This document shows, one piece after another, positions 572 through 31,537 of a DNA stretch of 34,075 bases. Below the pieces are notes generated by a model, which searched no databases, had not been told where the DNA came from, and saw nothing but the letters and a program-made list of their open reading frames with translations. The position numbers and the translations under genes are program-made. Location: NCBI GenBank assembly GCA_044866725.1, contig JBIOUD010000066.1:1-34075 (forward strand). The letters are read 5' to 3'. The first letter of the stretch is position 1. Each line of letters opens with the position of its first letter. The DNA comes from Candidatus Limnocylindria bacterium (GTDB taxonomy: Bacteria > Chloroflexota > Limnocylindria > P2-11E).

Positions 572-587
572 ATGACCAGACGGTCAT
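572..587. promoter_or_regulatory. ATGAC-N6-GTCAT palindrome, copy 1 (ATGACCAGACGGTCAT)
   Basis: Exact 5+5 inverted repeat in the gap between the dipeptidase stop (595) and the yggT ATG (538). Extended to GGTCATG on the right. Confidence 0.55.
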
Positions 588-594
588 GCTCTAG

Positions 595-1899
595 CTACCG
601 GAACCAGGCCTCCTCGAGCACACGCATCACGTTCCCGCCGATGGCTTTCGCGACATCGCCGTCGGAGTAGTCGTGTTTCACCATCCAGCGGACGATGTTC
701 GGGAACGCCTCGGCAGGGTTCTCGATGCCGTCGACGAACTCGACCTCGTCGACGTGCTCGGACCCGCGAGCCGCGCCGATCGAGAGCTGCTTCGCGAAGT
801 AGCGGTGCAGACCGACGTGGTCGCCGAACAGGGTGTCGGGTCCGAACGCGACATGGTCGATCCCCACGAGATCGGCGCAGTACTCGAAGTGCTCCATGAA
901 GCTCTCGATCGAGTGCCGTGGGTGCTTCTTCGTCAGCGTCGTGTGCGGTGCCGCCTCGATGCCGATGACGCCACCCTTCGCGGCCATCGCCTTCAGCACC
1001 TCGTCGGGTTTCATGCGCTTCGTGTTCCAGAGCGCGCGGGCGCCCGCGTGCGTGATAAAGATCGGCTTCTCGCTCGTCTCGATGGTGTCGAGAGAGGTCT
1101 GGTCGGCGGAGTGCGAGATGTCGATCGCGATGCCGAGCTTGTTCATCCGGCGCACGGCCTGTTTCCCGAACTCCGTGAGGCCGCCGTCGCGCGACTCCTT
1201 CAGACCGCTGCCAAGCGTGTTCGCCTCGCTGTACGCGATGCCGGATGAGCGGATGCCGAGACCGTAGAGGATGTCGAGCCGGTCGACCTCGTTCTCGATC
1301 GCAGTCGCGGCCTCGAGGGACGCGATGAACGCGATCTGCCCGTTCTTCTTCGCCTGCCGGATATCGTCGAGCGTCTCGCCGCGCGCGACGAAGTCCTGAT
1401 GCGCGATGTCCGAGAGGCGCATGCCGAGGTCGTAGATGATGTCGTCCCACTTCCAGCCGGCCTTCGACGTGATCGTCGCCGTGCCGTCCATGAGGCAGTC
1501 GAAGACCGCGTCGAGCCCCGACCGGGCCATCCCTGCGTAGCCGGTGACGTCACGGCCCTGACGGCGGTACTCGGCCAGATCGGCGAAGTCCTCGGGGACG
1601 ATGAAGCAGTGGTCGTGGAGCGAGATCGCAAGGTTCTCGTCGAGAAGCCTCTGCACTCGCTGCTCCTGGGCGTCGCTGACCTCGACCTTGCGCGATGGCA
1701 CGCGGTCGAGCTCCTTCGCGAGCTTGAACTCGCGGTAGTCGGTGCCCGGCGTGAGGTACTGGAAGCTCTTGAACCCAGAGTACTTCGTGCGCTTGCCGGC
1801 GTCTGTGGTCTTCACGGCCTCTCCCCTGTGCGCTGACTTCGCGTGGCGTCCGCCGATACTAGCGAGCGCGGCGCGGATCGAGCGCATCGCGTAATCCAT
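595..1899 (-). CDS. membrane dipeptidase, peptidase family M19
   Basis: LAISLHDHCF, IAIDISHSADQT, FITHAGARALWNTKRMKPDEV, GVIGIEAAPH and HVAFGPD motifs typical of renal-dipeptidase-like M19 enzymes. Start uncertain: it overlaps the upstream permease by 41 nt, and ATG 1887 is also possible. Confidence 0.85.
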   Translation of the reverse strand: MDYAMRSIRAALASIGGRHAKSAHRGEAVKTTDAGKRTKYSGFKSFQYLTPGTDYREFKLAKELDRVPSRKVEVSDAQEQRVQRLLDENLAISLHDHCFIVPEDFADLAEYRRQGRDVTGYAGMARSGLDAVFDCLMDGTATITSKAGWKWDDIIYDLGMRLSDIAHQDFVARGETLDDIRQAKKNGQIAFIASLEAATAIENEVDRLDILYGLGIRSSGIAYSEANTLGSGLKESRDGGLTEFGKQAVRRMNKLGIAIDISHSADQTSLDTIETSEKPIFITHAGARALWNTKRMKPDEVLKAMAAKGGVIGIEAAPHTTLTKKHPRHSIESFMEHFEYCADLVGIDHVAFGPDTLFGDHVGLHRYFAKQLSIGAARGSEHVDEVEFVDGIENPAEAFPNIVRWMVKHDYSDGDVAKAIGGNVMRVLEEAWFR

Positions 1900-2662
1900 C
1901 GCCGAGAAAGTTGAACGCGAGCACGACGATCGTGATCGCCAGCCCCGGATACAGCGCGAGCGCGGGCGCCGTGAACACGTACTGCTGCGCGCGTTGCAGC
2001 ATGTTGCCCCAGGAAGGGAGCGGTGGCTGGACGCCGAGGCCGAGGTAGCTCAGCGCGGACTCGGTGAGGATCGCGAACGCAACGCCAAGTGTGGCCGAGA
2101 CGATGAGCGACGGTATGGCCTGCGGCAGGATGTGCCGCACGAGCAGGCGCGGTCCGGGCACACCGAGCGACCGGGCGGCGAGGACGAAATCCGCCGCCTT
2201 CCAGCGGAGGGTCTCGCCGTAGACCACGCGCGCCACGGGCATCCAGGAGAGCCCGCCGATGACCAGGATGAGCGTCACCACGTTGGCGCCCAGCACGGTG
2301 ATCACGACGAGGATGAAGAAGAACGCCGGCACGGCGAGCATCGCGTCGGTGAAGCGCATCAACAGGAGGTCGATCCATCCGCCGTTGAAGCCGGCGAGGG
2401 CGCCGACGAGGACACCGATCAGCACGGCGGCGGCCATCGCCGCGAGGCCCACGAGCAGCGTGACCCGACTGCCGTGAAGCAGCCGGCTCAGCACGTCGCG
2501 CCCGATCTCGTCCGTCCCAAGGGGATGCGCGGGCGTGGGCCCGAGCAGGCGCTGCGCGGGATCCGTCGCCTCGGGAGCGAGCGACCATAAGAGCGGCCCG
2601 ACAAGCGCGAGGGCGCCTGCGAGCAGGAGCACGCCGAGCGCGACGACGCCGAGTCGCGTCAC
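1859..2662 (-). CDS. ABC transporter permease, DppC/OppC-like (peptide/nickel type)
   Basis: 267 aa with about 6 TM helices. HPLGTDEIGRDVLSRLLHG N-terminal motif and the EAA-like loop ARSLGVPGPRLLVRHILPQA are typical of binding-protein-dependent transport system inner-membrane components. Confidence 0.85.
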   Translation of the reverse strand: MTRLGVVALGVLLLAGALALVGPLLWSLAPEATDPAQRLLGPTPAHPLGTDEIGRDVLSRLLHGSRVTLLVGLAAMAAAVLIGVLVGALAGFNGGWIDLLLMRFTDAMLAVPAFFFILVVITVLGANVVTLILVIGGLSWMPVARVVYGETLRWKAADFVLAARSLGVPGPRLLVRHILPQAIPSLIVSATLGVAFAILTESALSYLGLGVQPPLPSWGNMLQRAQQYVFTAPALALYPGLAITIVVLAFNFLGDGLRDALDPRRAR

Positions 2663-3573
2663 GAGAGGCGCACGCGCGGATCGATGCGCGTGTATGCGAC
2701 ATCGACCGCGAAGCTCGCCAGCACCGCTATCGCTGCGACCACGACGGTGAGCCCGGTGATGAGCGGGTAGTCACGCCCCTGCGCCGCCTCGAGCCCGAGC
2801 CTGCCCATGCCGGGCCAGCTGAAGACGGCCTCGGTCACGACCGTGCCACCGAGGAGACGCGGCACGAGCGCGCCGATCGCGCTCACGACGGGAATGAGCG
2901 CGTTCCGCAGTGCGTGACGGAGGACGACGGTGCGTGGCCCGAGGCCCTTCGACCTGGCGGTGCGGATGTAGTCCTCTTGGAGCACCTCGATCGTCGCCGA
3001 GCGGACGAAGCGAACCACGGTCGGAAGGACCGTGGTGGCGAGGACCGTCGCCGGCAGGACGAGGTGCGTGATCCGATCCACGAGCGTGTCCGAGGCGACC
3101 GAGGTCACGCCGGCAGAGGGCAGCACGTCCAGCGACACCGCGAACAGCAGGATGAGGACGATCCCGAGCCAGAACACCGGGACCGAGAGCCCGATGGCGG
3201 TGAGGAGGCTGAGCACGTGGTCGATCGGCCTGCCGCGGTGCAGCGCCTGTACCAGTCCGATCGGGATCCCGAGCAGGATCGAGAGAGCGAGGGCCGTGCC
3301 CGCGAGGACGAGCGTGTTCGGCAGCCGCTCCCCGATCCGCTGCACGACGGGCTCGTCTGTGAGCAGCGACGTGCCGAGATCCCCGCGCACCGCACCGGCG
3401 ACCCACTCCGCGTACCGCTGCGCAACGGGCCGATCCAGACCCATGCGCTTGATGAGCGCCTCGCGCTGGTCGGCCGAGACGTCGAAGCGCATCACCGATG
3501 CCGGGCCACCCGGTGCGAGGTTGACGAAGAAGAACGTGAGGGCGCTCGCGAATACGATCACGAGCGCCCCCAA
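2659..3573 (-). CDS. ABC transporter permease, DppB/OppB-like
   Basis: 304 aa, multi-TM. EDYIRTARSKGLGPRTVVLRHALRNALIP is the EAA motif. 4-nt overlap with the next permease. The TTG start in the track probably truncates the conserved N-terminus (see finding). Confidence 0.85.
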   Translation of the reverse strand: MGALVIVFASALTFFFVNLAPGGPASVMRFDVSADQREALIKRMGLDRPVAQRYAEWVAGAVRGDLGTSLLTDEPVVQRIGERLPNTLVLAGTALALSILLGIPIGLVQALHRGRPIDHVLSLLTAIGLSVPVFWLGIVLILLFAVSLDVLPSAGVTSVASDTLVDRITHLVLPATVLATTVLPTVVRFVRSATIEVLQEDYIRTARSKGLGPRTVVLRHALRNALIPVVSAIGALVPRLLGGTVVTEAVFSWPGMGRLGLEAAQGRDYPLITGLTVVVAAIAVLASFAVDVAYTRIDPRVRLS

Positions 3574-3599
3574 CGCCAGGCGCTGGATGAGAAAGCGAG

Positions 3600-5228: not shown

Positions 5229-5297
5229 GTTCGCCCCTCCTTGTGCTGCCGCCGAGTCTACTTCGGGGGAGCCGCGGCCCGATCATCCTGTGCGGTC

Positions 5298-5327
5298 TTG
5301 ACAGCGGGGCTCGCCGCGCTGTATTAA
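5298..5327 (+). promoter_or_regulatory. sigma-70-like promoter of the ArsR/SRPBCC operon (TTGACA-18 nt-TATTAA)
   Basis: TTGACA at 5298-5303, an 18-nt spacer, then TATTAA at 5322-5327. Followed by an unusually AT-rich stretch (to about 5347) and GGAGGGAG just upstream of the ATG at 5361. Confidence 0.5.
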
Positions 5328-5360
5328 ACCAGATAGTTAAATAAAGCGACGGAGGGAGCG

Positions 5361-5711
5361 ATGGCGGTCGACCGGCTGAGCCTCACGTTCGGCGCCCTCG
5401 CCGATCCAACGCGCCGCGCGATCCTCGCGCGTCTCGCGAAGGGCGGCGCATCGGTCAGCGAGCTCGCCGAACCGTTCGACATGAGCCTCCCCGCGGTCAG
5501 CAAGCACCTGAAGGTGCTCGAGCGCGCCGGGCTCGTCTCGCGCGGCAAGGAGGCGCAGTGGCGGCCGGCGGCGATCACGGCGGGCCCGCTCAAGGAAGTC
5601 GACGACTGGGTCGAGCGCTATCGCGACATCTGGGAGCAGCGACTCGATCGCCTCGACGAGTACCTCAAGGAACTACAGGAGAAGGAGAAACGACATGGCC
5701 GCAAGGGATAG
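5361..5711 (+). CDS. ArsR/SmtB family transcriptional regulator
   Basis: LTFGALADPTRRAILARLAKGGASVSELAEPFDMSLPAVSKHLKVLERAGLVSRGKEAQWR is the canonical ArsR winged-HTH signature. Confidence 0.9.
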   Translation: MAVDRLSLTFGALADPTRRAILARLAKGGASVSELAEPFDMSLPAVSKHLKVLERAGLVSRGKEAQWRPAAITAGPLKEVDDWVERYRDIWEQRLDRLDEYLKELQEKEKRHGRKG

Positions 5712-6663: not shown

Positions 6664-6753
6664 CGACACGAGCCTCCAAAGAGCGTCCGGCACACAGCGG
6701 TAGCCGTATCGTCGCTCTGGCCCGCGCGACCGCGGTGTTGAGGGGGACAACCT

Positions 6754-9183
6754 GTGGATCGGACGCTTTTGGAGATCGTTCGGCAGCGCCTCGATCAGGG
6801 CGGCCACGCGAAGACGCCGTGGGCGAAGCTCGTCCTTGCCGCATGTTCGAGCAATGACGCGCTCGCGGCGGCGCTCGAGAGCGCGGAGTGGAAGCCCGCC
6901 ACGACGGGCAAAGGCGAGGTCGTCTCTGGTCCGGCGTACCTCAGGTCCGTCAGGGTGGAGGGCTTTCGCGGCATCGGCGCTCCGTCGACGCTCGAGCTCC
7001 CGCCTGGGAACGGCCTCACGCTCGTCGTGGGAAGGAACGGCTCGGGCAAGTCGAGCTTCGCGGAGGCCGTCGAGCTCCTGACGACGGGCACGAACCGTCG
7101 CTGGTCGACGCGCTCGAAGGTATGGCGGGAGGGTTGGCGCAATCTTCACCACGACACCTCCGAGGTCCGCGTCGAGTTCGTCCTCGAGGGCGACGGCATC
7201 GCGGCGGCCACCCTGCAGTGGCCCGCCGACGGCGACGTCGAGAACGGGACGCGCACGGTCCAGCGCGCTGCCGGAAAGAGAGCGCCGCTCGAGTCGCTCG
7301 GTTGGACGCGGTCGCTCGAGCTCTACCGTCCGTTCCTCTCGTACAACGAGCTCGGCGCGATGTTCGACGAAGGGCCGACCGCGCTGCACGACAAGCTCTC
7401 CGCGATGCTCGGCCTCGACGATCTCGCCGCCGCGCAGAAGGCGCTGCAGGACGCGCGGCTCCAGGCGCGTCGCGCGACCGATGCGGTGCGCGCGAAGACG
7501 GCCGGCCTCGTCACGCAGCTGCGTCTGGTCGACGACGATCGCGCGGCAAAGGCGCGGCAGGAGCTCGAGGGCGCCACGCCGGATGTGGCCGCGCTCCGGA
7601 GGCTGCTCGTCAAGACAGAGGAGCGCGAGGAGTCGCACGGTGCGGCGATGCGACAGCTCGCCGAGCTCGAGCCCATCGACGCTGAAGCGATCGCGCGCGC
7701 GGCCGACGGCCTTCGCAAGGCGGTCGCGGCGCAGGAGGCGCTCGCGGATACGCCGGCGGCAGAGGCGCGCGAGCTCGCGCAGCTGCTCGGGTCGGCGCTC
7801 GCGTACCACGAACGGCACAAGCCGAAGAAGTGCCCGGTGTGCTCCTCGGGCGATCTCGGGAAGCCCTGGCGCGACGCGACCGCGAAGCACGTGAAAGAGC
7901 TCGAGGCGCGCGCCGCGAAATTCGACGAGACGCAGCGCACCGCGAGCGCGGCGCTCTCCCGCCTCACCGGCTTCCTTCGGCCCGTGCCCGCGGCCGTGAC
8001 GAGCCTAAGAAACTCGCCCGTCGATACGACAAAGCTCTCCACCGCGTGGGCGGCATGGTTCACGGCGGACGACGCGGGCGTGAAGGCCGCGGCGCGTCGC
8101 ATCGAGACGCAGGCCAGAGAGCTCGCCGCGCTCCTCGCGACCGCGCAGGAGCAGGCGCGCGCCGCGGTGAAGACGCGCGATGATGCGTGGGCGCGCGTCG
8201 TGCCGGCCCTCGCGACGTGGATCGACGAGGCCGACGCGGCCGCTGCGGCATCCGGTCGTGTCGGTGACGTCAGTCGCGCCGAGGAGTGGTTAAAGGACAC
8301 GGGCGACGAGATCCGTGCGGAGCGCTTCACGCCGGTCGCCGAGCACGCGCGACGCCTCTGGGAGCTCATGCGTCAGCAGAGCAACGTCGAGCTCGAGGCG
8401 CTCACGCTCGAGGGCAGCGGCGCGCGGCGTCGTTCCGACGTGCGCGTCGAGGTCGACGGGAAGCCCGCGCAGGCGCTCGCTGTGATGAGCCAGGGTGAGC
8501 TGCACGCCATCGCGCTCAGCCTCTTCGTCCCGCGGGCGACGGCCACCGAGAGCCCGTTCCGCTTCATGGTCATCGACGATCCGGTGCAGTCGATGGATCC
8601 GGCCCGCGTCGACGGCCTCGCGCGAGTGCTCGAGCTCGTCGCCGCTGACCGGCAGGTCATCGTGTTCACGCACGACGATCGTCTGCCCGAGGCGGTACGC
8701 CGCCTCGAGATCAAGGCGACGATCCTCGGCGTCACGCGGCGTGAAGGATCGGTCGTGGAAGTGCGGACCGAGGCGGATCCGGTCACGCGCGCGATCGCCG
8801 ACGCGCGCACGCTGGCGTTCACGGACGAGCTGCCTCTGGAGATCGCGCGCCGGACGGTCCCGGGTTTCTGCCGCCTCGCGATCGAGGCCGCGTGCTGGGA
8901 GGTCGTGCGCAAGCGACGGCTGCTGCGTGGCGACTCGTTCGTGAAGGTCGAGGAGTCCATCGCCGAGGCGAAGACGCTGACGCAGCTCGCGAGCCTTGCC
9001 CTCTACGACGAGAAGGACCGGGGTGCCGACGTGCTTCCGCGCATCAACCGCGACTTCGGGCCCGAGCAGGGCGATGCGTTCAAAGGGAGCAACACCGGCC
9101 CGCACGACGGATACGCCGGCGACCTGAAGGCGCTCACGCAGCGCACGTCGACGCTCACGGCGCAGCTCCGGAAGCTCAAGTGA
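6754..9183 (+). CDS. Rad50/SbcC/RloC-like ABC ATPase with coiled-coil insert, CxxC hook and a helical C-terminal domain
   Basis: GAGGGGG Shine-Dalgarno 7 nt before GTG 6754. Walker A GRNGSGKSS (7030-7056). About 370 aa of Ala/Arg/Glu/Leu-rich coiled-coil-like sequence with KKCPVCSSGD near its midpoint (Cys codons 7831 and 7840). Signature-like MSQGE (8485-8499), Walker B FMVIDD (8563-8580) and VIVFTHDDR. An extra helical domain of about 135 aa runs from about 8776. Confidence 0.85.
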   Translation: MDRTLLEIVRQRLDQGGHAKTPWAKLVLAACSSNDALAAALESAEWKPATTGKGEVVSGPAYLRSVRVEGFRGIGAPSTLELPPGNGLTLVVGRNGSGKSSFAEAVELLTTGTNRRWSTRSKVWREGWRNLHHDTSEVRVEFVLEGDGIAAATLQWPADGDVENGTRTVQRAAGKRAPLESLGWTRSLELYRPFLSYNELGAMFDEGPTALHDKLSAMLGLDDLAAAQKALQDARLQARRATDAVRAKTAGLVTQLRLVDDDRAAKARQELEGATPDVAALRRLLVKTEEREESHGAAMRQLAELEPIDAEAIARAADGLRKAVAAQEALADTPAAEARELAQLLGSALAYHERHKPKKCPVCSSGDLGKPWRDATAKHVKELEARAAKFDETQRTASAALSRLTGFLRPVPAAVTSLRNSPVDTTKLSTAWAAWFTADDAGVKAAARRIETQARELAALLATAQEQARAAVKTRDDAWARVVPALATWIDEADAAAAASGRVGDVSRAEEWLKDTGDEIRAERFTPVAEHARRLWELMRQQSNVELEALTLEGSGARRRSDVRVEVDGKPAQALAVMSQGELHAIALSLFVPRATATESPFRFMVIDDPVQSMDPARVDGLARVLELVAADRQVIVFTHDDRLPEAVRRLEIKATILGVTRREGSVVEVRTEADPVTRAIADARTLAFTDELPLEIARRTVPGFCRLAIEAACWEVVRKRRLLRGDSFVKVEESIAEAKTLTQLASLALYDEKDRGADVLPRINRDFGPEQGDAFKGSNTGPHDGYAGDLKALTQRTSTLTAQLRKLK

Positions 9184-9551
9184 GACCGAAGGAGCTCGCC
9201 GACGCCGCCGAGCAGGTGCTCGTCGACCCGAGCGACGCGCTCTTCGGTTGCTGGGCTCGCGCTTCCGCTTTGCTCGCGCGTCAGTCGCTGGAGACGGCGA
9301 TGGATGAGCTCTGGCGGAAGCGGGCCCCGATCGTCAGGCAGTGCTCGACGACGGCGCAGCTCCTCGTGCTGCCCTCGTACCTCCGCGATCAGGAGGCGGC
9401 CCGCGACGCTGCGTACGCGTGGAGCGCGCTGTCACGCGCGTGCCACCACCACGCCTACGAGCTCGCGCCGACCGCGTCGGAGCTGCGCTCGCTCATCAAA
9501 CTCACGCGGCGCGTTGCGGCCGCGATCGAGGCGGCGACCACGCTCGCCTGA
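9180..9551 (+). CDS. small all-helical protein, HEPN-like (R-x4-H-x-Y), coupled to the ATPase
   Basis: GTG at 9180 overlaps the ATPase TGA (GTGA). 123 aa: VRPKELADAAEQ...SRACHHHAYELAPTASELRSLIKLTRRVAAAIEAATTLA. The track shows it only as the tail of the longer shadow ORF 8892..9551. Its sequence resembles the C-terminal domain of the ATPase. Confidence 0.6.
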   Translation: MRPKELADAAEQVLVDPSDALFGCWARASALLARQSLETAMDELWRKRAPIVRQCSTTAQLLVLPSYLRDQEAARDAAYAWSALSRACHHHAYELAPTASELRSLIKLTRRVAAAIEAATTLA

Positions 9552-9555
9552 CGCG

Positions 9556-10632
9556 CTAGCGCCGGGTCCACGCGAGGAGGTCGTCGACAGCGAGCGAATT
9601 CACGACCCGCTCGATCGTCACGCCGGTCTCGACGGCCTTATCGGCGCCGTATGCGAGCCACTCGAGCTGACCGGGTGCGTGCGCATCCGTGTCGATCGCG
9701 AAGCGGCAACCAATCTCGGCGGCGAGCGCGAGGAGATCGTTCGGCGGGTCGAGGCGCTCGGGTCGGGAGTTGATCTCGACCGCGGTCCCGAACCGTTCGC
9801 AGGCCGCGAAGACGATCTCGGCGTCGAACTGCGACTGCGGCCTCCCGCGCCCGACGACGTAGCGGCCGGTGCAGTGTCCGAGCACGTCGGCGTGCGGGTT
9901 GGCGATCGCGGCGACCATCCGCCGCGTCATCTGCTCCTTCTCCATCCGCAGCTTCGAGTGCACTGATGCGACGACGACGTCGAGCCGCGCGAGGATGTCG
10001 TCGTCCTGGTCGAGCTTGCCGTCCTCGAGGATGTCCACTTCGATCCCGCTGAGGATGCGGAACGGCGCCATGTCGCGGTTCAGAGCGGCGACGATGTCGA
10101 GCTGCTTCAGGAGGCGCTCGCGCGAGAGACCGTTCGCGACGGTCAGCCGGGGCGAGTGGTCGGTCAGCGCGATGTAGTCGTGCCCGAGCGCTCGTGCTGC
10201 GCGGGCCATGACGTCGATCTCGGCGCCGCCATCGCTCCACAGCGAGTGCGTATGGAGGTCGCCCTTGAGCGCAGCGACGAGCTGGTTACCCTTGCCCACC
10301 GCGATGGCGGTCTCCTGCTCGAGCTTGTCGAGGTAGGCCGCCGTGCCGGAGGTCACGACCTCAGCGATGACCGCGGCCGTCTTCGGGCCGATGCCATCGA
10401 GTTGCTGGAGCGTGCCGGTGGCAACGAGCGCGCGCACGTCGTCAGCTGCGAGGGCTCTCACGACCTCCGCCGCGCGCAAGTAGGCGCGGACGCGATAGGG
10501 CGCTTCCCTCGCTCGATCCATCAGGTAGGCGATCCGTTCCAGTGCCTCAGCGGGGTCCATCGGCGCCGACGGTACCTCTGCCGTCTCCCGGAGCGCGCGG
10601 GCGTAACCAGAAGCCAATGACCGTTCGGTCAT
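9556..10632 (-). CDS. HhH + PHP domain phosphoesterase (PolX-like, without a polymerase palm)
   Basis: N-terminal helix-hairpin-helix region (LQQLDGIGPKTAAVIAEV), then PHP motifs GDLHTHSLWSDG, IALTDHSP, SGIEVDI, ASVHS and AIDTDAH. Start is either ATG 10632 (inside palindrome copy 2) or ATG 10560 (MDPAEALERIAYL). The track start at 10722 is unlikely. Confidence 0.85.
   Translation of the reverse strand: MTERSLASGYARALRETAEVPSAPMDPAEALERIAYLMDRAREAPYRVRAYLRAAEVVRALAADDVRALVATGTLQQLDGIGPKTAAVIAEVVTSGTAAYLDKLEQETAIAVGKGNQLVAALKGDLHTHSLWSDGGAEIDVMARAARALGHDYIALTDHSPRLTVANGLSRERLLKQLDIVAALNRDMAPFRILSGIEVDILEDGKLDQDDDILARLDVVVASVHSKLRMEKEQMTRRMVAAIANPHADVLGHCTGRYVVGRGRPQSQFDAEIVFAACERFGTAVEINSRPERLDPPNDLLALAAEIGCRFAIDTDAHAPGQLEWLAYGADKAVETGVTIERVVNSLAVDDLLAWTRR
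10617..10632. promoter_or_regulatory. ATGAC-N6-GTCAT palindrome, copy 2 (ATGACCGTTCGGTCAT)
   Basis: Near-perfect 16-bp palindrome (7+7 arms) in the divergent region between the PHP gene and mini-protein A. Confidence 0.55.
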
Positions 10633-10712
10633 GACGGTTTGAAGCAAGCGACCGAGAGTTTCATTGCGAACGCAGGCCAGACACGCCCGCCAGTTCGCGC
10701 GGGAGGTAGATC

Positions 10713-10928
10713 GTGCCCGCACTTATCCAGTTCCGCTGTCGCGCGATCGAGCACCAGAGCCCTGCCGTCCTGAACGTGACCGTCAGTCCGATCACGCTGT
10801 ACGAGCACCTCTGGGCCTACTGCCCACTCGGTGTGTCCGCTGGCCACGCGTGGGCAAGGCTCGAGATCGGACGTTCGCTCGACGAGATGAGGCGAACGAG
10901 GTTCAGCGAGGCGCGGCTCGCCACGTGA
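10713..10928 (+). CDS. 71-aa Cys/His mini-protein A (C-x4-H ... WAYC-x7-H-x-W), uncharacterised
   Basis: GGGAGGT Shine-Dalgarno about 5 nt before GTG 10713. Protein-like composition. Clear paralogy to the mini-protein at 15709..15969. Confidence 0.5.
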   Translation: MPALIQFRCRAIEHQSPAVLNVTVSPITLYEHLWAYCPLGVSAGHAWARLEIGRSLDEMRRTRFSEARLAT

Positions 10929-11008
10929 GGCGAGCTCGGCGTCCGTGATCTGGCCGGTGCCAGGACCACGTACTCCGGACATGCATCAGACACATGTGGG
11001 AGGAAGCG

Positions 11009-11440
11009 ATGACCGAGAAGAGCCTCTACGACCGTCTCGGCGGTGTTTTCGCTATCGCGGCGGTGGTCGACCACTTCAGTGACGCGGTGGTGCAGAACCC
11101 CATCGTTGGCAAGACCTCGAAAAACGCGGCCCTGCGCGAGTGGCATACCAAGAACCTGAGCCGTCTGCCGGGACTCAAATTCATGCGGACGCTCTGGGTC
11201 TGCGACGTAGCCGGCGGACCGCTGCGGTACACAGCCACCAAGCCGGGGCAAACGACGATCGGACTCGAAGAGGCTCACAAGGACCTGCGGATCTCACCGG
11301 CTGAGTTCGATGAAGTTGCCGCAGTTCTCGGCCGCACACTCGACTACTTCAAGGTCCCCGAGCCGGAGAAAGACGAAGTCCTCGGTGCGTTTGCGGCGCA
11401 CAAGAACGAGGTCACGTCAGGGCACAAGGCAGCGGCGTAA
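11009..11440 (+). CDS. group 1 truncated hemoglobin (trHbN-like globin)
   Basis: SLYDRLGG...AIAAVVDHFSDAVV...LKFMRTLWVCDVAGGP...GLEEAHKDLRISPAEFDEVA is 2-on-2 globin-like, with a proximal His in EEAHKDL. GGAGG lies 5 nt before ATG 11009, which is preferred over ATG 10994. Confidence 0.85.
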   Translation: MTEKSLYDRLGGVFAIAAVVDHFSDAVVQNPIVGKTSKNAALREWHTKNLSRLPGLKFMRTLWVCDVAGGPLRYTATKPGQTTIGLEEAHKDLRISPAEFDEVAAVLGRTLDYFKVPEPEKDEVLGAFAAHKNEVTSGHKAAA

Positions 11441-11465
11441 GTCAAACCATCGTCACAGGGATATT

Positions 11466-11496
11466 CGCGCTGCCCGAGCCGTGGTCGGGCAGCGCG
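11466..11496 (+). terminator. GC-rich hairpin between convergent genes (possible bidirectional terminator)
   Basis: CGCGCTGCCCGA / 7-nt loop / TCGGGCAGCGCG gives a perfect 12-bp stem. It lies 26 nt after the globin stop. There is no clear U-tract (TCTATCC follows). Confidence 0.5.
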
Positions 11497-11571
11497 TCTA
11501 TCCACGGGGGTGGTGAGTAGTCAGGTAGACGTGGGCTCAGCCGGACCGTACCGGTGGCACCGCGGAGGTGC

Positions 11572-11587
11572 ATGACCGAACTGTCAT
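11572..11587. promoter_or_regulatory. ATGAC-N6-GTCAT palindrome, copy 3 (ATGACCGAACTGTCAT)
   Basis: Exact arms. Located in the convergent gap between the globin terminator hairpin and the 3' end of the OmpR-type regulator. Preceded by GGAGG. Confidence 0.45.
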
Positions 11588-11618
11588 CGTCGGGATCGCG
11601 CAGAGCCGGCGGGAGCTT

Positions 11619-12356
11619 CTAGGTGTCCTCCGCCACGAAGCGGTAGCCGCTGCCGGACACGGTCTGGATGTATCGGGGCTTGTGCCAGTCGTTCTGCAGC
11701 TTCGTCCGCAGCGCACGAACGTGGCGGTCGACGACGTTGCTTTCGATCACGAAGTCGGTACCCCACAGCGCGTCGAGGATCTGCTCGCGCGTGAGGACGG
11801 TTCCGGCGTTCGCCGCCAGAAGATAGAGGAGCGCCTGCTCAAGTGAGCTGAGGTGGAGCTCGTGATCGCCCGCAAGCACCTTCCGGTTCAGGACATCGAT
11901 CTCAAGGTCGCCGATCCGCAGCTTCGGCACGAGACTCCCGGGATCGCCGTGCGTCCGGCGGAGGACGGCCCGTGAACGCGCGACCAGGTCGTCTGGCACG
12001 AAGGGGATGCCGATGTAGTCGTCCGCACCCCGCTCGAATGCGTCGAGCTTGCCGCGCAGGTCGCTGCGCCTTGTCAACGCGATCACGCCGACCGGGCCTT
12101 TGGCGCGCGCGTCATCGATCAACTGCATGCCGCGCCCCGCCTCGAGGTCGATGTCAAGGATGAGCAGGTGTGGCTTCCACGAGGCGATCGCGGAGCGGGC
12201 GCCCGCCACCGTCGTTTCGGAGCGGCGCTCGTAACCGCCGTGCCGGAGCGTCAGCTCGACTGTGTTCGCGATCGCGCGATCGGCGATCGCGAACAACGCG
12301 CGGATCACTGGTTTGACTTTGGACTGTCGCCGCTCACCGCTCGGCCGCTGCTTCAC
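11619..12356 (-). CDS. OmpR/PhoB-family response regulator with an atypical receiver
   Basis: The C-terminal winged helix (LSSLEQALLYLLAANAGTVLTREQILDALWG...VVDRHVRALRTKL...IQTVSGSGYRF) is canonical. The receiver keeps LLILDIDL and IALT but reads ADDYIGIPF where ADDYxxKPF is expected. AGGAGG lies 8 nt before GTG 12356. The 571-aa track ORF is a shadow extension. Confidence 0.85.
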   Translation of the reverse strand: MKQRPSGERRQSKVKPVIRALFAIADRAIANTVELTLRHGGYERRSETTVAGARSAIASWKPHLLILDIDLEAGRGMQLIDDARAKGPVGVIALTRRSDLRGKLDAFERGADDYIGIPFVPDDLVARSRAVLRRTHGDPGSLVPKLRIGDLEIDVLNRKVLAGDHELHLSSLEQALLYLLAANAGTVLTREQILDALWGTDFVIESNVVDRHVRALRTKLQNDWHKPRYIQTVSGSGYRFVAEDT

Positions 12357-12379
12357 GAGAGTGGCCTCCTGCAGAGATT

Positions 12380-13537
12380 CTACGATTGGACGTTCGCGGG
12401 CAGGCTCAGCACGAATGTGCTTCCGGCGCTCGAGCTTGATTCCAAGCGCAGCCTGCCGCCATGCCGCTCGGCGAGCCGCCGACTGATGTACAGCCCCAGA
12501 CCGGTGCCCCGTATGTGTCTTGTGAGTGCTGTGCGGTAGAACGGCGTGAAGATCGCTTCTGTCTCCTCCGCGGGGACACCCAGCCCGAGGTCGACGACCC
12601 GGAGTTCGGCGACGCTGCCGTTCAGCATCAGCGAGAGGGCGACGGGCGCATCCTCGGCACTGTACTTGAGCGCGTTCGCGATGAGGTTGTCGAGGATCTG
12701 CGCGATGCGCGCAGGATCGCCGAGCACGCGCACGGATGCGCGCGGATGCGCGAACGTGATCCTCGGCATCGGCGCGTAGTCGTGGATCGCGACCGCGTCG
12801 GCCACCGCGGTCACGAGGTCCACCGGCACGACGGTGAGGCTGAGGCTGTTCGAACTGAGGCTGGCATGATCGAGCAGATCGCCGATGAGGTGGCCCATGC
12901 GATCGACCTGCGCAAGCGCGAGGTCCAGCGCGTAGCGTTCGCGTTCGGGGTCTCGCCCGATCCGGCGACGCGCGAGCTGCATCTGACCGCGGATCACGGT
13001 GAGCGGTGTGCGCAGCTCGTGCACGACCGTCCGGAGCAGATCGGTCTGTGGCCAATCCGCCGCGAGACGGCCGACGTCTGGGAAGACGCTGATCGGCAGC
13101 GTCGTCACGTGTGGCTCCGGTGGAGCGATCGGCGACGGACGCTCGACGGCACTCTTCACTGTCGCCAGGAACTCGTCCACGACGAACGGCTTGCTGATGA
13201 TCCCCGCGAACCCCGCGGCGACGCTCCGCGGCGACCGCTCCGCTCGCGCCTCCGCGAGCGACGCGCCGTCCGCAGTGAAGATCACGACGGGAAGAGAGGG
13301 ATGCGCGCGGCGGATCGCCGCTGCGTCGTCCCACGTCCGGCTCTCGCCGGTAGCGGGGACCTCGCCGTCAAGGATGACGCAGTGGGGCTGCCAGCGGTCG
13401 ACGGCCGCCTCGATCTCGCCGTGATCGGCGATCGTGATCGGGTGGTAGCCGGCGCCCGAGAGGACCTCCGCGACGAGCGTGGTCAGCGCGGGGTCGTCCT
13501 CGACGAGCAAGACGTTCCTCATATCCACGAATGGCAT
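12380..13537 (-). CDS. cytoplasmic REC-HisKA-HATPase hybrid histidine kinase
   Basis: N-terminal receiver (VLLVEDDP, CVILDG, VIFTAD, ISKPF), H-box VVHELRTPLTVIRGQ, N-box DNLIANALKY, G-boxes DLGLGV and GTGLGL. No TM, PAS or GAF region visible. The alternative start ATG 13522 (MRNVLLVEDDP) is coupled to an upstream mini-ORF. Confidence 0.9.
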   Translation of the reverse strand: MPFVDMRNVLLVEDDPALTTLVAEVLSGAGYHPITIADHGEIEAAVDRWQPHCVILDGEVPATGESRTWDDAAAIRRAHPSLPVVIFTADGASLAEARAERSPRSVAAGFAGIISKPFVVDEFLATVKSAVERPSPIAPPEPHVTTLPISVFPDVGRLAADWPQTDLLRTVVHELRTPLTVIRGQMQLARRRIGRDPERERYALDLALAQVDRMGHLIGDLLDHASLSSNSLSLTVVPVDLVTAVADAVAIHDYAPMPRITFAHPRASVRVLGDPARIAQILDNLIANALKYSAEDAPVALSLMLNGSVAELRVVDLGLGVPAEETEAIFTPFYRTALTRHIRGTGLGLYISRRLAERHGGRLRLESSSSAGSTFVLSLPANVQS

Positions 13538-13562
13538 CGTCTAGCAAGCGGGCATACGAGGC

Positions 13563-13578
13563 ATGACCGTTCTGTCAT
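13563..13578. promoter_or_regulatory. ATGAC-N6-GTCAT palindrome, copy 4 (ATGACCGTTCTGTCAT)
   Basis: Exact arms, 26-41 nt upstream of the kinase start and 10 nt downstream of the preceding gene's stop. Confidence 0.55.
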
Positions 13579-13587
13579 TGGTATGCG

Positions 13588-14142
13588 CTACACGCGGTTG
13601 TCATAAATACGAACACCAAGAGCGCGGCTCATCGGGAGCGGCCACTCAAACGCATCTGGACGAGGCTGATCGCCCGTCCCACCAAGGAGGATGAGGAGTC
13701 CCGCGAACGTCCCGATCGGCGAGCCGACCCACAGCAGCCCGGCCGGCGATGGTGAGCCGGCGGTCGCGCTCGGACGTCGCGCGAGCGAGTCTGGGTGCGC
13801 GTCGTTGATGCCTGATTCCGTCACGGCGAGCCGGTAGTAGGTCGGCGGGCTCTGGGAGCGCTCGGCGATGCGAAGTCGGTATGTCTTCGGAATCTGCCAA
13901 TCCGAGACGAGCGAGCCGAGCACGTCCCGCGGATCATGACCGCGGTCCGAAGCGTCGTCGTCAGCGAAAGCACGAACGATCGCGACATCCCGTCGCTCCT
14001 CGATGCTCGTGAGGAGTGGGACCGCGGGATCACGCGCGCGGTACGAGCCCGCTAGCAGACGGGCGACGGTGCCGTCGGTATCGGGCGAGACGAGCCGAAA
14101 CTCGTGGAGCTCGAGACTGTGAGGGCGTTCAGCGATGGACAT
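13588..14142 (-). CDS. hypothetical protein with C-terminal TM helix
   Basis: ORF 13588..14163, with ATG 14142 (MSIAERPHSLELHEF) preferred. Protein-like composition and one hydrophobic segment (LLWVGSPIGTFAGLLILLGG). No family recognised. Confidence 0.5.
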   Translation of the reverse strand: MSIAERPHSLELHEFRLVSPDTDGTVARLLAGSYRARDPAVPLLTSIEERRDVAIVRAFADDDASDRGHDPRDVLGSLVSDWQIPKTYRLRIAERSQSPPTYYRLAVTESGINDAHPDSLARRPSATAGSPSPAGLLWVGSPIGTFAGLLILLGGTGDQPRPDAFEWPLPMSRALGVRIYDNRV

Positions 14143-14175
14143 GTCACGAGCATCGCCGCGCACCGAGGCGGTGTC

Positions 14176-14191
14176 ATGACACGAACGTCAT
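14176..14191. promoter_or_regulatory. ATGAC-N6-GTCAT palindrome, copy 5 (ATGACACGAACGTCAT)
   Basis: Exact arms, preceded by GTC (GTCATGAC). Lies in the divergent region between 13588..14142 (-) and 14176..14472 (+). Confidence 0.55.
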
Positions 14192-14472
14192 GGCGCGACC
14201 CGGATGACGGTTTTGTCATCCCCGCGCCGGGGTTGAAGCGTACGGTCGCACGCATGCTCGATGTCTATCTCTGGTTCTTCTCGGGCGTCGTGCTCGGTCT
14301 ATGCGTCATGGGTTTTATCGCGATCGCTTCGTTCGACCGTGGGGTCGACAGCGTGCGTCGCCGGGCTTGGGGCATCGAGCTGGCGGCTCGTCATGCGCTC
14401 GTTGCACGCCGCAGTGCGCATCTCGCGCCGGACGCGGTACAGACCAGGGAGCGTCACCGGATCGCGAGCTGA
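14176..14472 (+). CDS. small hypothetical membrane protein (72-98 aa depending on start)
   Basis: Frame of track ORF 14104..14472. One TM helix (YLWFFSGVVLGLCVMGFIAIASF). Candidate starts are ATG 14176 (inside palindrome 5) or ATG 14254. Third-position bias is moderate and there is no clear Shine-Dalgarno. Confidence 0.35.
   Translation: MTRTSWRDPDDGFVIPAPGLKRTVARMLDVYLWFFSGVVLGLCVMGFIAIASFDRGVDSVRRRAWGIELAARHALVARRSAHLAPDAVQTRERHRIAS
14204..14219. promoter_or_regulatory. ATGAC-N6-GTCAT palindrome, copy 6 (ATGACGGTTTTGTCAT)
   Basis: Exact arms. Its centre is 28 bp from the centre of copy 5. Confidence 0.55.
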
Positions 14473-14643
14473 CCAGCGATGCCAGCTCCGGATACGCGCG
14501 TCGCGCCGGAGATGTCTGGCTACACCCGCCGGCGACGATCGCGCGCACGACGCTCCAGACGTCGCCCAAACACTCCGCAGGCGGACCTTTGAGTTACCGA
14601 GCGCTGGAGGGGCTCCGTCCGCCGCGTTGAAATACCCGTGGAG

Positions 14644-14805
14644 TTAGCCGACGCGCAGACCGGCGAAAGCCAAGAACGCGGCGAGGACGACGAGGCCGAA
14701 GAGCGTCCAGAGCGCCTCAGGGCGCGTCAGCAGAGGTGGGCGAGCGGCGGGAAAGCCGTCCACCCAGTCTTCGTTCCGTGACTCGTCAACGACTGCTGTG
14801 GCCAT
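14644..14805 (-). CDS. 53-aa hypothetical membrane protein
   Basis: GGGAGGA Shine-Dalgarno 5 nt before ATG 14805. MATAVVDESRNEDWVDGFPAARPPLLTRPEALWTLFGLVVLAAFLAFAGLRVG has one C-terminal TM helix. The frame is also open from ATG 14868. Confidence 0.4.
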   Translation of the reverse strand: MATAVVDESRNEDWVDGFPAARPPLLTRPEALWTLFGLVVLAAFLAFAGLRVG

Positions 14806-14866
14806 CGTGTCCTCCCCGCCCCTGGAAAGGGCGGGCCAAATCGTCGGCTTTGCGCCGAGGTCGGTC

Positions 14867-14882
14867 ATGACGAAACCGTCAT
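14867..14882. promoter_or_regulatory. ATGAC-N6-GTCAT palindrome, copy 7 (ATGACGAAACCGTCAT)
   Basis: Exact arms, preceded by GTC. About 60-75 nt upstream of ATG 14805 and 50 nt downstream of the SnoaL-like gene's stop. Confidence 0.55.
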
Positions 14883-31499: not shown

Positions 31500-31537
31500 G
31501 ACGGAAAGCCTACGGGCAGGAGTGCGCGGTGTGGTCG

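What the first reader, a model, noticed from the sequence alone, without database searches (positions are those of the whole stretch)
572..14882. Seven exact copies of a 16-bp palindrome ATGAC-N6-GTCAT, six of them clustered in 10.6-14.9 kb
Read directly from the sequence, the copies are: 572-587 ATGACCAGACGGTCAT; 10617-10632 ATGACCGTTCGGTCAT; 11572-11587 ATGACCGAACTGTCAT; 13563-13578 ATGACCGTTCTGTCAT; 14176-14191 ATGACACGAACGTCAT; 14204-14219 ATGACGGTTTTGTCAT; 14867-14882 ATGACGAAACCGTCAT. A manual scan of the whole window found no other exact copy. There are two one-mismatch look-alikes inside genes (8645-8660 CTGAC..GTCAT and 16259-16274 AGGAC..GTCAT). The arms are AT-rich in a roughly 70% G+C sequence. 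With p(A)=p(T)=0.15 and p(G)=p(C)=0.35, a rough expectation is far below 0.1 exact copies per 34 kb, so seven is not chance. Spacers favour a GTTC/GAAC-like centre, and four copies are extended to GTCATGAC. Every copy lies outside recognisable coding cores. Most sit 25-80 nt upstream of, or on, a start codon: yggT, the PHP / mini-protein A divergent pair, the REC-kinase operon, the 13588..14142 / 14176..14472 divergent pair (two copies) and the 53-aa membrane protein. A 5-6-5 palindrome has the geometry of a dimeric HTH operator, the same layout as Crp/Fnr-type boxes. It matches no consensus I can recall (LexA, DosR, Rex, CRP, IdeR, CIRCE, CtsR and BldD all differ in sequence or spacing). I infer an operator of a local regulon that ties the globin/two-component islet together. 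The cognate factor is unknown; the atypical OmpR-type regulator at 11619..12356 is the nearest candidate.
Basis: partly seen in the sequence, partly recalled or inferred. Interest (0 to 1): 0.75.

Follow-up and report, generated by a model that had tools for sequence, protein, structure and literature searches.

The report
Promoter operator of a local regulator
The seven palindromes are real binding-site-like elements built into seven promoters around an unusual two-component regulator gene in an uncultured soil Chloroflexota bacterium, and their sequence core is the same as the known E. coli CusR "copper box", so this is a new example of a familiar kind of gene switch.

Summary
In detail: there are seven exact ATGAC-N6-GTCAT copies, against 0.03 expected by chance. 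The window comes from Candidatus Limnocylindria (Chloroflexota), not an actinobacterium.

The dyad is conserved across this lineage. There are 88 exact copies in 726 kb around orthologous regulators, and none in 451 kb of control loci. It sits at a fixed position: a -10-like nAnnnT box starts exactly 22 nt after one arm, which puts the dyad centre at about -41.5. The start codon usually follows 6-7 nt after that box, which implies leaderless mRNAs. All seven window sites are directional promoters. Their targets are yggT, a 71-aa ORF followed by the globin, a short non-coding RNA, the kinase and regulator operon, a 184-aa partner protein, and two small membrane proteins.

Sites cluster within 3 kb of a multi-copy OmpR-type regulator whose receiver domain lacks the conserved lysine. 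Paralogs with a different recognition helix have no sites. The core sequence equals the E. coli CusR box (ATGACAAnnTTGTCAT), but the regulator is not in the CusR subfamily and the regulon is envelope/stress-like rather than metal-related.

Best reading: this is an auto-regulatory activator site for that regulator. Binding has not been tested. It is a new member of a known kind, of moderate interest.

The parts
572..587 (-). Dyad ATGACCAGACGGTCAT. Promoter points to the - strand: -35-like ATGACT, -10 CACGAT at 545-550, predicted start ~538.
   Evidence: (promoter-model (PWM) score 31.8), 70. yggT homologs carry the dyad upstream in 9 of 11 loci.
131..538 (-). yggT-family membrane protein (135 aa). 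Leaderless target of site 572.
   Evidence: Pfam YGGT. The ATG lies 7 nt after the -10 box. Regulon cluster 3, n=12.
10617..10632 (+). Dyad ATGACCGTTCGGTCAT. Promoter points to the + strand: -35-like ATGACG, -10 GAGAGT at 10654-10659, predicted start ~10666.
   Evidence: (score 23.0). The dyad also overlaps an upstream in-frame ATG (10632) of the divergent PolX-like gene.
10713..11440 (+). Inferred transcription unit of a 71-aa ORF (10713-10928, with a GGGAGG ribosome-binding site) followed by a truncated globin (11009-11440).
   Evidence: GC3-based gene call. Pfam Bac_globin. Co-transcription is inferred only. This unit was not seen in the other loci.
11572..11587 (-). Dyad ATGACCGAACTGTCAT. 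Promoter points to the - strand: -10 TACGGT at 11545-11550, predicted start ~11538.
   Evidence: (score 24.2).
11450..11538 (-). Candidate ~90-nt non-coding RNA: a C-rich stretch (CACCACCCCCG) followed by a strong hairpin that is also the globin terminator read from the other strand.
   Evidence: No ORF follows the promoter. Fold energy -41.2 kcal/mol, z = -5.35. No Rfam match. An analogous ORF-less C-rich transcript follows dyad promoters in L002, L009, L015 and L031.
13563..13578 (-). Dyad ATGACCGTTCTGTCAT. Promoter points to the - strand: -10 GACGAT at 13536-13541, predicted start ~13529.
   Evidence: (score 30.8).
12380..13528 (-). REC-HisKA-HATPase hybrid histidine kinase with no membrane or sensor domain. 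Leaderless GTG at 13528, or ATG at 13522.
   Evidence: Pfam. Regulon cluster 1, n=32. Start-codon options.
11619..12356 (-). OmpR/PhoB-type response regulator (245 aa) with a degenerate receiver. It is the proposed dyad-binding protein and is co-transcribed behind the kinase.
   Evidence: Pfam Response_reg (38 bits) and Trans_reg_C. Conserved Lys replaced (DDYIGIPF against CusR DDYLVKPF). Recognition helix ESNVVDRHVRALR(T/A)KL is shared by paralogs that have sites. Site density peaks at this gene family.
14176..14191 (-). Dyad ATGACACGAACGTCAT. Promoter points to the - strand: -35-like ATGACA, -10 GATGCT at 14149-14154, predicted start ~14142.
   Evidence: (score 27.2). In 39 of 39 homologous partner genes a dyad lies upstream, and in 31 it lies 46-50 nt before the start codon.
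13588..14142 (-). 184-aa partner protein. It has no Pfam or NCBIfam family, is lineage-specific, and is normally the first gene of the regulator operon. Leaderless.
   Evidence: 681 homologs. AlphaFold2 pTM 0.72 with a tandem ferredoxin-like fold; weak Foldseek matches to ABM monooxygenase, HmoB and chlorite-dismutase-like proteins.
14204..14219 (+). Dyad ATGACGGTTTTGTCAT. Promoter points to the + strand: -10 TACGGT at 14241-14246, predicted start ~14253. It is divergent from site 14176.
   Evidence: (score 19.4).
14254..14472 (+). 72-aa small membrane protein (MLDVYLWFFSG...). Leaderless target.
   Evidence: Regulon cluster 4 (MPDLWFF family, n=7). Correct frame established. No Pfam family.
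14867..14882 (-). Dyad ATGACGAAACCGTCAT. Promoter points to the - strand: -35-like ATGACC, -10 GACGAT at 14840-14845, predicted start ~14833.
   Evidence: (score 33.5).
14644..14805 (-). 53-aa small protein with a C-terminal hydrophobic segment and a ~28-nt leader carrying GGGGAGGA.
   Evidence: Regulon cluster 5, n=5. Sequence.

Best explanation
Each ATGAC-N6-GTCAT dyad is the operator of a fixed promoter module: (R/G)T(G/T)AC-N6-GTCAT-G(A/C)C, then a -10-like nAnnnT box starting 22 nt after the arm, then in about half of the cases a start codon 6-7 nt further on (leaderless mRNA). The dyad spans about -49 to -34, with its centre at -41.5, and its last two bases plus the following G form the TTG-like part of a weak -35. 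The most likely binder is a dimer of the adjacent lineage-specific OmpR/PhoB-type regulator (11619-12356), placing one winged-helix domain on each arm in a head-to-head arrangement, as CusR-type regulators do on the same core sequence. From this position it most likely activates transcription by a housekeeping-type RNA polymerase, because the core hexamers are weak. The regulon is mainly local and self-reinforcing. It comprises the partner-and-regulator and kinase operons, yggT, small membrane proteins, Ice-binding-like and SPFH proteins elsewhere, a small C-rich RNA and, in this window, a globin. The promoter geometry, conservation and linkage to the regulator gene are shown. Binding by this regulator, the direction of regulation, the start sites and the input signal are inferred.
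For: Statistics: 7 sites against 0.03 expected. Lineage conservation: 88 exact sites in 726 kb of Limnocylindria loci, 0 in 451 kb of control loci. Fixed geometry: nAnnnT at offset 21 in 78 of 178 flanks, against about 4 elsewhere; G at -33 in 74 of 78. Unbiased recovery of the distal arm: anchoring only on GTCATG-N20-nAnnnT gives 156 hits against 6 in controls, and RTGAC re-emerges. Strict N6 spacing. A promoter position weight matrix (PWM) finds 173 promoters in these loci, 0 in controls, and all 7 window sites with a direction. Leaderless spacing: start codon 6-7 nt after the -10 box in 67 of 153. Footprint without motif selection: 39 of 39 partner genes have the dyad upstream. Linkage to the regulator: 10.0 sites per 10 kb within 1 kb of the gene, falling to 0.2-0.6 beyond 3 kb. 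Paralogs with helix SESKVVDWH have no sites. Precedent: the E. coli CusR box AAAATGACAAnnTTGTCATTTT (PMC11195947) was verified in K-12 DNA, and the CusR/HprR box CATTACAAAATTGTAATG has the same 5-6-5 layout (PMC9302797). ATTAC and GTAAT arm variants also occur here. Weak core hexamers, averaging 5.8 of 12 consensus matches, argue for dependence on an activator. A at -11 and T at -7 fit a sigma-70-type polymerase.
Against: No binding or expression data exist. Most structurally characterised OmpR-family regulators (PhoB, KdpE, OmpR) bind direct repeats, and this is an inverted repeat. The regulator is not in the CusR/CopR subfamily, and its DNA-binding domain is no closer to CusR than to PhoB or MtrA. 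Helix invariance carries little weight because the whole protein is 75-93% conserved. The helix-variant paralogs also differ in operon context, so their lack of sites could reflect regulon membership rather than specificity. Start sites are predicted, not mapped. A site overlapping -35 could also repress. Whole genomes could not be scanned, so the regulon beyond 10 kb from a regulator gene is unknown. Background density there is low but not zero.
Confidence: 0.65

Rival explanations
1. The same regulator binds the dyad but acts as a repressor or dual regulator. By occupying -49 to -34 it would block polymerase access to the -35 region, with induction by release.
For: The dyad overlaps the -35-like ATG(A/C)C. 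About 40% of promoters have a fair ATGACn -35. CopR bound to the shared palindrome represses one of two divergent operons in Pseudomonas (PMC11195947).
Against: A repressor does not need a fixed register, yet the dyad sits at one exact distance from the -10 box in nearly all cases. The core hexamers are weak (5.8 of 12), so little basal activity would be there to repress.
Confidence: 0.15
2. A different dimeric transcription factor encoded elsewhere in the genome, for example a Crp/Fnr-type protein acting from a class II position, binds the dyad. The regulator operon would then be merely its most frequent target.
For: A 5-6-5 dyad centred at -41.5 is the classic class II Crp/Fnr geometry. Most well-studied OmpR-family proteins prefer direct repeats. 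The regulator's DNA-binding domain is not specifically CusR-like.
Against: No Crp/Fnr-type gene lies in the window or in the annotated neighbour loci. Site density decays steeply with distance from the regulator gene, which is the behaviour of a locally encoded factor. The half-sites are not TGTGA/TCACA or TTGAT/ATCAA. The identical core is a proven OmpR-family site in E. coli (PMC11195947).
Confidence: 0.12
3. The conserved block is not a regulator site. It would be an extended promoter recognised directly by an alternative sigma factor, with GTCATGAC serving as a special -35.
For: The proximal arm, the G at -33 and the -10 box keep a fixed spacing. ECF-type sigma genes lie next to the regulator in L005 and L006.
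Against: The distal arm RTGAC, 11 bp further upstream, is conserved and forms a strict dyad, which a sigma factor would not require. The -10 box keeps the A(-11)/T(-7) signature of sigma-70-type factors. No sigma gene lies in the window. The 20-nt gap after GTCATG is too long for a -35/-10 pair, unless the -35 is the overlapping ATGACn.
Confidence: 0.05
4. The copies are chance matches, or remnants of a mobile repeat such as terminal inverted repeats.
For: Isolated matches to the longer pattern do occur by chance in unrelated metagenomic DNA.
Against: 0 of 100 shuffles reach 7 sites. Flanks are unrelated apart from the promoter elements. The dyad is conserved at orthologous gene starts across species at 50-90% protein identity.
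Confidence: 0.01

Closest known systems
E. coli CusR / PcoR copper box (AAAATGACAAnnTTGTCATTTT)
   Same: The core and spacing are identical: ATGAC-N6-GTCAT, flanked by C...G-type positions. It is bound by an OmpR-family response regulator. It lies between divergent operons, one of which encodes the regulator itself, so it is autoregulatory (PMC11195947; K-12 sequence).
   Different: The spacer here is G+C-rich (GGTTCC-like), not AAnnTT. The regulator is only 34% identical to CusR and fails the heavy-metal subfamily models. The kinase is a soluble REC-kinase, not a periplasmic CusS. The targets are envelope/stress-type proteins, not copper efflux. There are many sites per locus, whereas E. coli has essentially one.
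CusR/HprR shared box CATTACAAAATTGTAATG and the Pseudomonas CopR/CusR/CzcR palindromes
   Same: These are 5-6-5 inverted repeats recognised by several paralogous OmpR-family regulators that share one site (cross-regulation). ATTAC and GTAAT arm variants, and asymmetric distal arms (GTTAC here, GAAAC for CzcR), also occur (PMC9302797, PMC11195947).
   Different: The phylum, signals and regulon differ. Here the paralogs (three or more per MAG) have a degenerate receiver without the conserved Lys.
Class II Crp/Fnr-dependent promoters (site centred at -41.5)
   Same: A 16-bp 5-6-5 dyad centred at about -41.5 that overlaps a weak -35. This is inferred from the position of the -10 box.
   Different: The half-site sequence differs, and no Crp/Fnr protein was found nearby. 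The position is a resemblance in mechanism only.
PhoB pho box and the MtrA box
   Same: OmpR-family sites with an 11-bp half-site period that contain a GTCA core (CTGTCAT, GTCACA). The pho box replaces the -35 element. These consensus sequences are from my own knowledge and were not checked here.
   Different: Those are direct repeats bound head-to-tail. Here direct arrangements are absent: ATGAC-N6-ATGAC occurs 0 times.
Atypical OmpR-family regulators (HP1043/HsrA, ChxR, GlnR)
   Same: The receiver domains lack canonical residues. HP1043 is reported to bind an inverted repeat as a symmetric dimer (from my own knowledge; PDB 2hqr appears among the hits).
   Different: Those are orphans. This family sits next to a kinase and a dedicated partner protein, and most members keep the phospho-acceptor Asp.

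Membership tests
Operator of an OmpR/PhoB-family response regulator | An OmpR/PhoB-type regulator (receiver plus Trans_reg_C winged helix) is encoded with the sites. | tested here: met
   Pfam domains. KdpE, MtrA and PhoB are the nearest solved structures. Site density peaks at the gene.
Operator of an OmpR/PhoB-family response regulator | Two half-sites about one helical turn apart (10-11 bp centre to centre). | tested here: met
   5+6 = 11 bp. The spacing is strictly N6: 95 sites against 0-2 for other spacings.
Operator of an OmpR/PhoB-family response regulator | Direct-repeat (head-to-tail) half-sites, as for PhoB, OmpR and KdpE. | tested here: not met
   The arms are inverted. ATGAC-N6-ATGAC occurs 0 times and GTCAT-N6-GTCAT twice. 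Inverted sites are, however, normal for the CusR/HprR branch (PMC11195947, PMC9302797).
Operator of an OmpR/PhoB-family response regulator | Demonstrated binding of the regulator to the site. | not testable with these tools
   Needs EMSA, DAP-seq or footprinting.
CusR/CopR/PcoR/HprR copper box | An inverted repeat A-T-(G/T)-A-C N6 G-T-(C/A)-A-T. | tested here: met
   for the window. One search shows ATGACAATTTTGTCAT in the E. coli cusR-cusC intergenic region. Consensus sequences from PMC11195947 and PMC9302797.
CusR/CopR/PcoR/HprR copper box | The cognate regulator belongs to the heavy-metal response-regulator subfamily (TIGR01387 / PRK09836). | tested here: not met
   The full-length protein scores 120.6 bits against a cutoff of 279.2. 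The DNA-binding domain alone scores 68 on TIGR01387, against 78 on PhoB. The CusR control scores 141 and 215 on its own models.
CusR/CopR/PcoR/HprR copper box | Control of copper/silver efflux or oxidase genes, with a periplasm-sensing CusS-type kinase. | tested here: not met
   The targets are YggT, the partner protein, a REC-kinase, Ice_binding, Band_7, DUF5670 and small membrane proteins. The kinase has no transmembrane or periplasmic domain.
CusR/CopR/PcoR/HprR copper box | An A+T-rich central spacer (AAnnTT). | tested here: not met
   The spacer consensus is G-G-(T/A)-(T/C)-C-(G/C).
Class II Crp/Fnr site | A dyad centred near -41.5 relative to the transcription start. | tested here: inconclusive
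   The geometry relative to a conserved -10-like box fits, but start sites are predicted, not mapped.
Class II Crp/Fnr site | TGTGA/TCACA or TTGAT/ATCAA half-sites, and a cNMP-binding/HTH_Crp regulator. | tested here: not met
   The half-sites differ. No such protein is among the window ORFs. The only trace is a sub-threshold HTH_Crp_2 hit inside the ArsR-type protein. Genome-wide absence cannot be tested.
Atypical (phosphorylation-independent) OmpR-family regulators | Loss of conserved receiver residues. | tested here: met
   The conserved Lys is replaced by I, V, L or another non-Lys residue in every family member examined. The phospho-acceptor Asp is N, H or E in L032, L037, L043, L048, L051 and L046. 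The first acidic residue of the pocket is variable.
Atypical (phosphorylation-independent) OmpR-family regulators | Orphan status with no cognate kinase, and activity without phosphorylation. | tested here: inconclusive
   A REC-kinase is adjacent and belongs to the same regulon. Whether it phosphorylates this regulator cannot be tested here.
Alternative-sigma (ECF-type) promoter | Conserved -35 and -10 blocks only, with no dyad requirement. | tested here: not met
   The distal arm, 11 bp upstream of the proximal one, is independently conserved. The -10 box has the A(-11)/T(-7) signature of sigma-70-type factors.

The most novel reading that the evidence does not exclude
The dyad is the shared operator of a lineage-specific, multi-copy signalling module in Limnocylindria. 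The module would consist of a phosphorylation-impaired OmpR-type regulator (no conserved Lys, sometimes no acceptor Asp) whose activity is set by a dedicated ferredoxin-like/ABM-fold partner protein, possibly binding heme or a small ligand, rather than by classical phosphotransfer. Several paralogous modules would converge on one operator to drive a leaderless envelope/desiccation-type regulon that includes a C-rich small RNA.
Probability: 0.25. Interest if true: 0.65.

Novelty: new member of a known kind. Interest (0 to 1): 0.45.

Why it matters
This gives a ready-made, testable regulon for an abundant but uncultured class of soil Chloroflexota: an exact operator, predicted start sites, target genes and a candidate regulator. 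It shows that the CusR-type 5-6-5 inverted repeat is used by OmpR-family regulators well outside the proteobacterial heavy-metal branch, and for non-metal functions. It also documents a very regular architecture of a site at -41.5 combined with leaderless mRNAs, which could be used to annotate promoters and true start codons in these MAGs. It does not reveal a new principle of regulation.

Tried and rejected
- An exact look-up of the source contig through the globin protein found nothing (one search was a coordinate error).
- A literature search for the literal string ATGAC-N6-GTCAT found nothing. A search on Limnocylindria plus response regulator found nothing relevant.
- I looked for an alternative dyad in the same geometry near the helix-variant (type 2) regulators, which would have been strong covariation evidence. 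None was found. Those genes have a different conserved promoter and no partner gene.
- I tested whether the regulator's DNA-binding domain is specifically CusR-like. It is not.
- The partner protein's fold gave only weak matches, with TM about 0.55. I use this as a lead only.
- Rfam found no known RNA in the window or in four related loci.
- The generic sigma-70 consensus scan found no promoter in 10.4-15.4 kb. These promoters are too far from the E. coli consensus for that tool.
- The metagenome-wide pattern scan was dominated by chance matches in unrelated DNA and added only weak support.
- My early family scans of window:14256-14472 were in the wrong frame. I redid them as 14254-14472, again with no family.
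- I considered and rejected actinobacterial regulators with GAC/GTC cores (DosR, GlnR, MtrA boxes), because of spacing, orientation or taxon.

Full report
**Observation.** In 100 dinucleotide-preserving shuffles the mean is 0.03 and the maximum 1. The window is 64-74% G+C. The one-mismatch look-alikes at 8645 and 16259 exist, and there is a third at 23835. None of these three reached the reporting threshold of the later promoter-model scan.

**Gene context and organism.** Pfam annotation gives the following layout:

| Coordinates | Strand | Product |
|---|---|---|
| 131-538 | - | YggT |
| 595-1899 | - | M19 dipeptidase |
| to 5228 | - | Opp-type ABC transporter |
| 5361-5711 | + | ArsR-type regulator |
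| 9556-10632 | - | PolX-like HHH/PHP protein |
| 11009-11440 | + | truncated globin |
| 11619-12356 | - | OmpR-type response regulator |
| 12380-13528 | - | REC-HisKA-HATPase kinase |
| 13588-14142 | - | protein with no known family |
| several | both | small ORFs |
| 14933-15322 | - | DUF4440 protein |
| 15363-15932 | - | REC-only protein |

Housekeeping genes follow. Homologs of the regulator are 78-93% identical, number in the thousands, come almost entirely from metagenomes, and where named are Candidatus Limnocylindria or Chloroflexota.

**Conservation.** I fetched 59 loci around orthologs and paralogs of the regulator. Another 27 loci around distant OmpR-family regulators (under 45% identity, mostly Actinomycetota) serve as controls. 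The exact palindrome occurs 88 times in 726 kb of the Limnocylindria loci and 0 times in 451 kb of controls. The spacing is strict: N6 gives 95 sites, while N4, N5 and N7 give 0-2. Direct or everted arrangements give 0-2.

**Promoter architecture.**
- In the flanks of the sites, a hexamer nAnnnT starts exactly 22 nt beyond one arm in 78 of 178 flanks, against about 4 at other offsets.
- Oriented by that box, the module reads ATGAC-N6-GTCAT-G-(A/C)-C ... (C/G/T)A(C)nnT, with G at -33 in 74 of 78 cases.
- If the box is the -10 element (-12 to -7), the dyad spans -49 to -34 with its centre at -41.5. The bases ATG(A/C)C at -35 to -31 then resemble TTGAC.
- To remove selection bias I anchored only on GTCATG-N20-nAnnnT. 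This gave 156 hits in Limnocylindria loci against 6 in controls, and the distal arm re-emerged as RTGAC (T 134, G 121, A 138, C 144 of 156).
- A position weight matrix (PWM) built without the window finds 173 promoters in those loci, 0 in controls, and all seven window sites, each with a clear direction.
- In 67 of 153 promoters with a called ORF, the start codon begins 6-7 nt after the -10 box, which implies leaderless mRNAs.
- The core hexamers are weak, averaging 5.8 of 12 matches to TTGACA/TATAAT. This favours dependence on an activator.

**Window targets.**

| Site | Strand | Target |
|---|---|---|
| 572 | - | yggT, leaderless ATG 538 |
| 10617 | + | start ~10666, then a 71-aa ORF and the globin (co-transcription inferred) |
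| 11572 | - | start ~11538, a ~90-nt ORF-less C-rich RNA ending in a strong hairpin |
| 13563 | - | kinase and regulator operon |
| 14176 | - | 184-aa partner, leaderless ATG 14142 |
| 14204 | + | 72-aa membrane protein, ATG 14254 |
| 14867 | - | 53-aa protein with a Shine-Dalgarno leader |

**Regulon across loci.** The targets are:

- the partner protein, followed by the regulator (40 promoters)
- the REC-kinase (32)
- Ice-binding-like secreted proteins (17)
- YggT (12)
- the MPDLWFF small membrane protein (7)
- the 53-aa protein (5)
- SPFH/Band 7 and DUF5670 proteins, and a stand-alone OmpR-type DNA-binding domain

This is an envelope/stress-like set, not a metal-resistance set. In a footprint that did not use the motif for selection, 39 of 39 partner genes found by protein homology have the dyad upstream, 31 of them 46-50 nt before the start codon. 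For yggT it is 9 of 11. Many kinase promoters use GTTAC as the distal arm.

**Who binds.**
- Site density is 10.0 per 10 kb within 1 kb of a type-1 regulator gene, then 4.2, then 2.2, and 0.2-0.6 beyond 3 kb. In the window no site lies between 15 and 34 kb. This is the behaviour of a locally encoded, autoregulated factor.
- The regulator is multi-copy, with three or more paralogs per MAG.
- Paralogs with the recognition helix ESNVVDRHVRALRAKL have sites. A sub-family with SES(K)VVD(W)H (L007, L042, L046 and the second copy in L035) has none. That sub-family also lacks the partner gene and uses another promoter.
- No other DNA-binding protein is consistently present.

**The receiver domain is degenerate.** The conserved Lys is replaced in all members (DDYIGIPF against CusR DDYLVKPF). 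The acceptor Asp is N, H or E in six paralogs. Pfam scores the receiver at only 38 bits.

**Comparison with known systems.**
- PMC11195947 states that E. coli CusR binds AAAATGACAAnnTTGTCATTTT and that pcoE carries TGACAAnnTTGTCAT.
- I verified ggcaaaATGACAATTTTGTCATttttc in the K-12 cusR-cusC intergenic region.
- PMC9302797 gives the shared CusR/HprR box as CATTACAAAATTGTAATG.
- The dyad core, its 5-6-5 layout and even its flanking C...G are therefore those of a proven OmpR-family operator.
- ATTAC and GTAAT variants also occur here.
- The same papers describe several paralogous regulators sharing one palindrome, which parallels the multi-copy family here.

**Membership in the CusR family fails.** The regulator is 34% identical to CusR. 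It scores 120.6 on the heavy-metal subfamily model against a cutoff of 279.2. Its DNA-binding domain alone is no closer to CusR than to PhoB or MtrA. The spacer is G+C-rich, the kinase is cytoplasmic, and no copper genes are controlled. So it works like a CusR box but is not a CusR system.

**The partner protein.** It has 681 homologs, all without a domain assignment. AlphaFold2 (pTM 0.72) predicts a soluble tandem ferredoxin-like fold, with weak similarity (TM about 0.55) to ABM-type monooxygenases, heme-binding HmoB and chlorite-dismutase-like proteins. It may be the input module for a regulator that cannot be activated normally. That is speculation.

**Reverse test.** A metagenome scan with CATGAC-N6-GTCATGAC mostly returned chance matches in unrelated DNA. 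The only high-G+C loci with several predicted promoters (L096, L131, L136) all encode the type-1 regulator, the partner and the kinase.

**Verdict.** The best explanation is an autoregulatory, probably activating, operator for the adjacent atypical OmpR-type regulator, built into a fixed -41.5 leaderless promoter module. I put confidence at about 0.65 for the full chain and about 0.9 for the statement that it is a promoter-linked regulator site. It is a new member of a known kind.

Noticed in passing
window 11450-11538 (-); L002 ~9160-9290 (+ coordinates), L009, L015, L031: ORF-less transcripts behind dyad promoters. Four loci share a conserved ~75-nt RNA, GCCACCCCAACCCCUCCCCACA followed by a GC-rich hairpin. 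The window has an analogous C-rich segment plus hairpin. This is a possible anti-Shine-Dalgarno-type small RNA. There is no Rfam family for it.
   Followed up: partly
L007, L042, L046, L035:1174-1863: A second sub-family of the regulator with helix SES(K)VVD(W)HVR. It is an orphan with no partner gene, has no dyads nearby, and has its own conserved upstream block ...gtgTAGCCTcgggtccGTGcccgagtga....
   Followed up: partly
window 13588-14142 (-): The 184-aa partner protein has 681 lineage-restricted homologs, no Pfam or NCBIfam family, and a predicted tandem ferredoxin-like fold. Its highly conserved motifs are RLAVTESGIN and WPLP.S..LGVRIY.
   Followed up: partly
L018 ~12150-12500, L022 ~4700, L024 ~9400: Stand-alone OmpR-type DNA-binding domain genes (~115 aa, no receiver) sit behind dyad promoters. 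They have a conserved hairpin leader gcgttgc(n)gcaacg.
   Followed up: no
L011 3927, L014 8224, L016 3636, L021 4727, L023 870, L049 2252: A conserved structured-looking leader, gccgcgacg..tgtcgcg.gctcgaaa.ggacggcggc, lies between a dyad promoter and a Cys-rich secreted or membrane protein gene.
   Followed up: no
L014, L018, L040, L043 (record titles): Near-identical Limnocylindria-type loci (regulator 70-83% identical, 66-69% G+C) sit in MAGs labelled Saccharimonadales, Udaeobacter, Gemmatimonadota and Acidiferrales. The contigs are probably mis-binned.
   Followed up: no
window 9556-10722 (-): The start of the PolX-like HHH/PHP gene is ambiguous. The in-frame ATG at 10632 is the last triplet of dyad 10617-10632, while the Pfam domain begins near the ATG at 10560. 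This gene is not driven by a dyad-type promoter.
   Followed up: partly
window 1-34075: The window appears to be a whole contig. The partner protein's own database entry lists a longest contig of 34075 bases.
   Followed up: no
window 23093-28249 (+) and 28278-31649 (-): There is a very large (1718 aa) beta-propeller-containing protein. Convergent with it is a zinc-ribbon, adenylate/guanylate cyclase, AAA and TPR protein (1123 aa). Cyclase genes also neighbour the regulator in L002 and L005.
   Followed up: no
L001 5436-6143 (-) and 10001-10708 (+): Two regulator paralogs (66% and 82% identical to the window's) lie 4 kb apart on one contig, with eight predicted dyad promoters in the locus.
   Followed up: no
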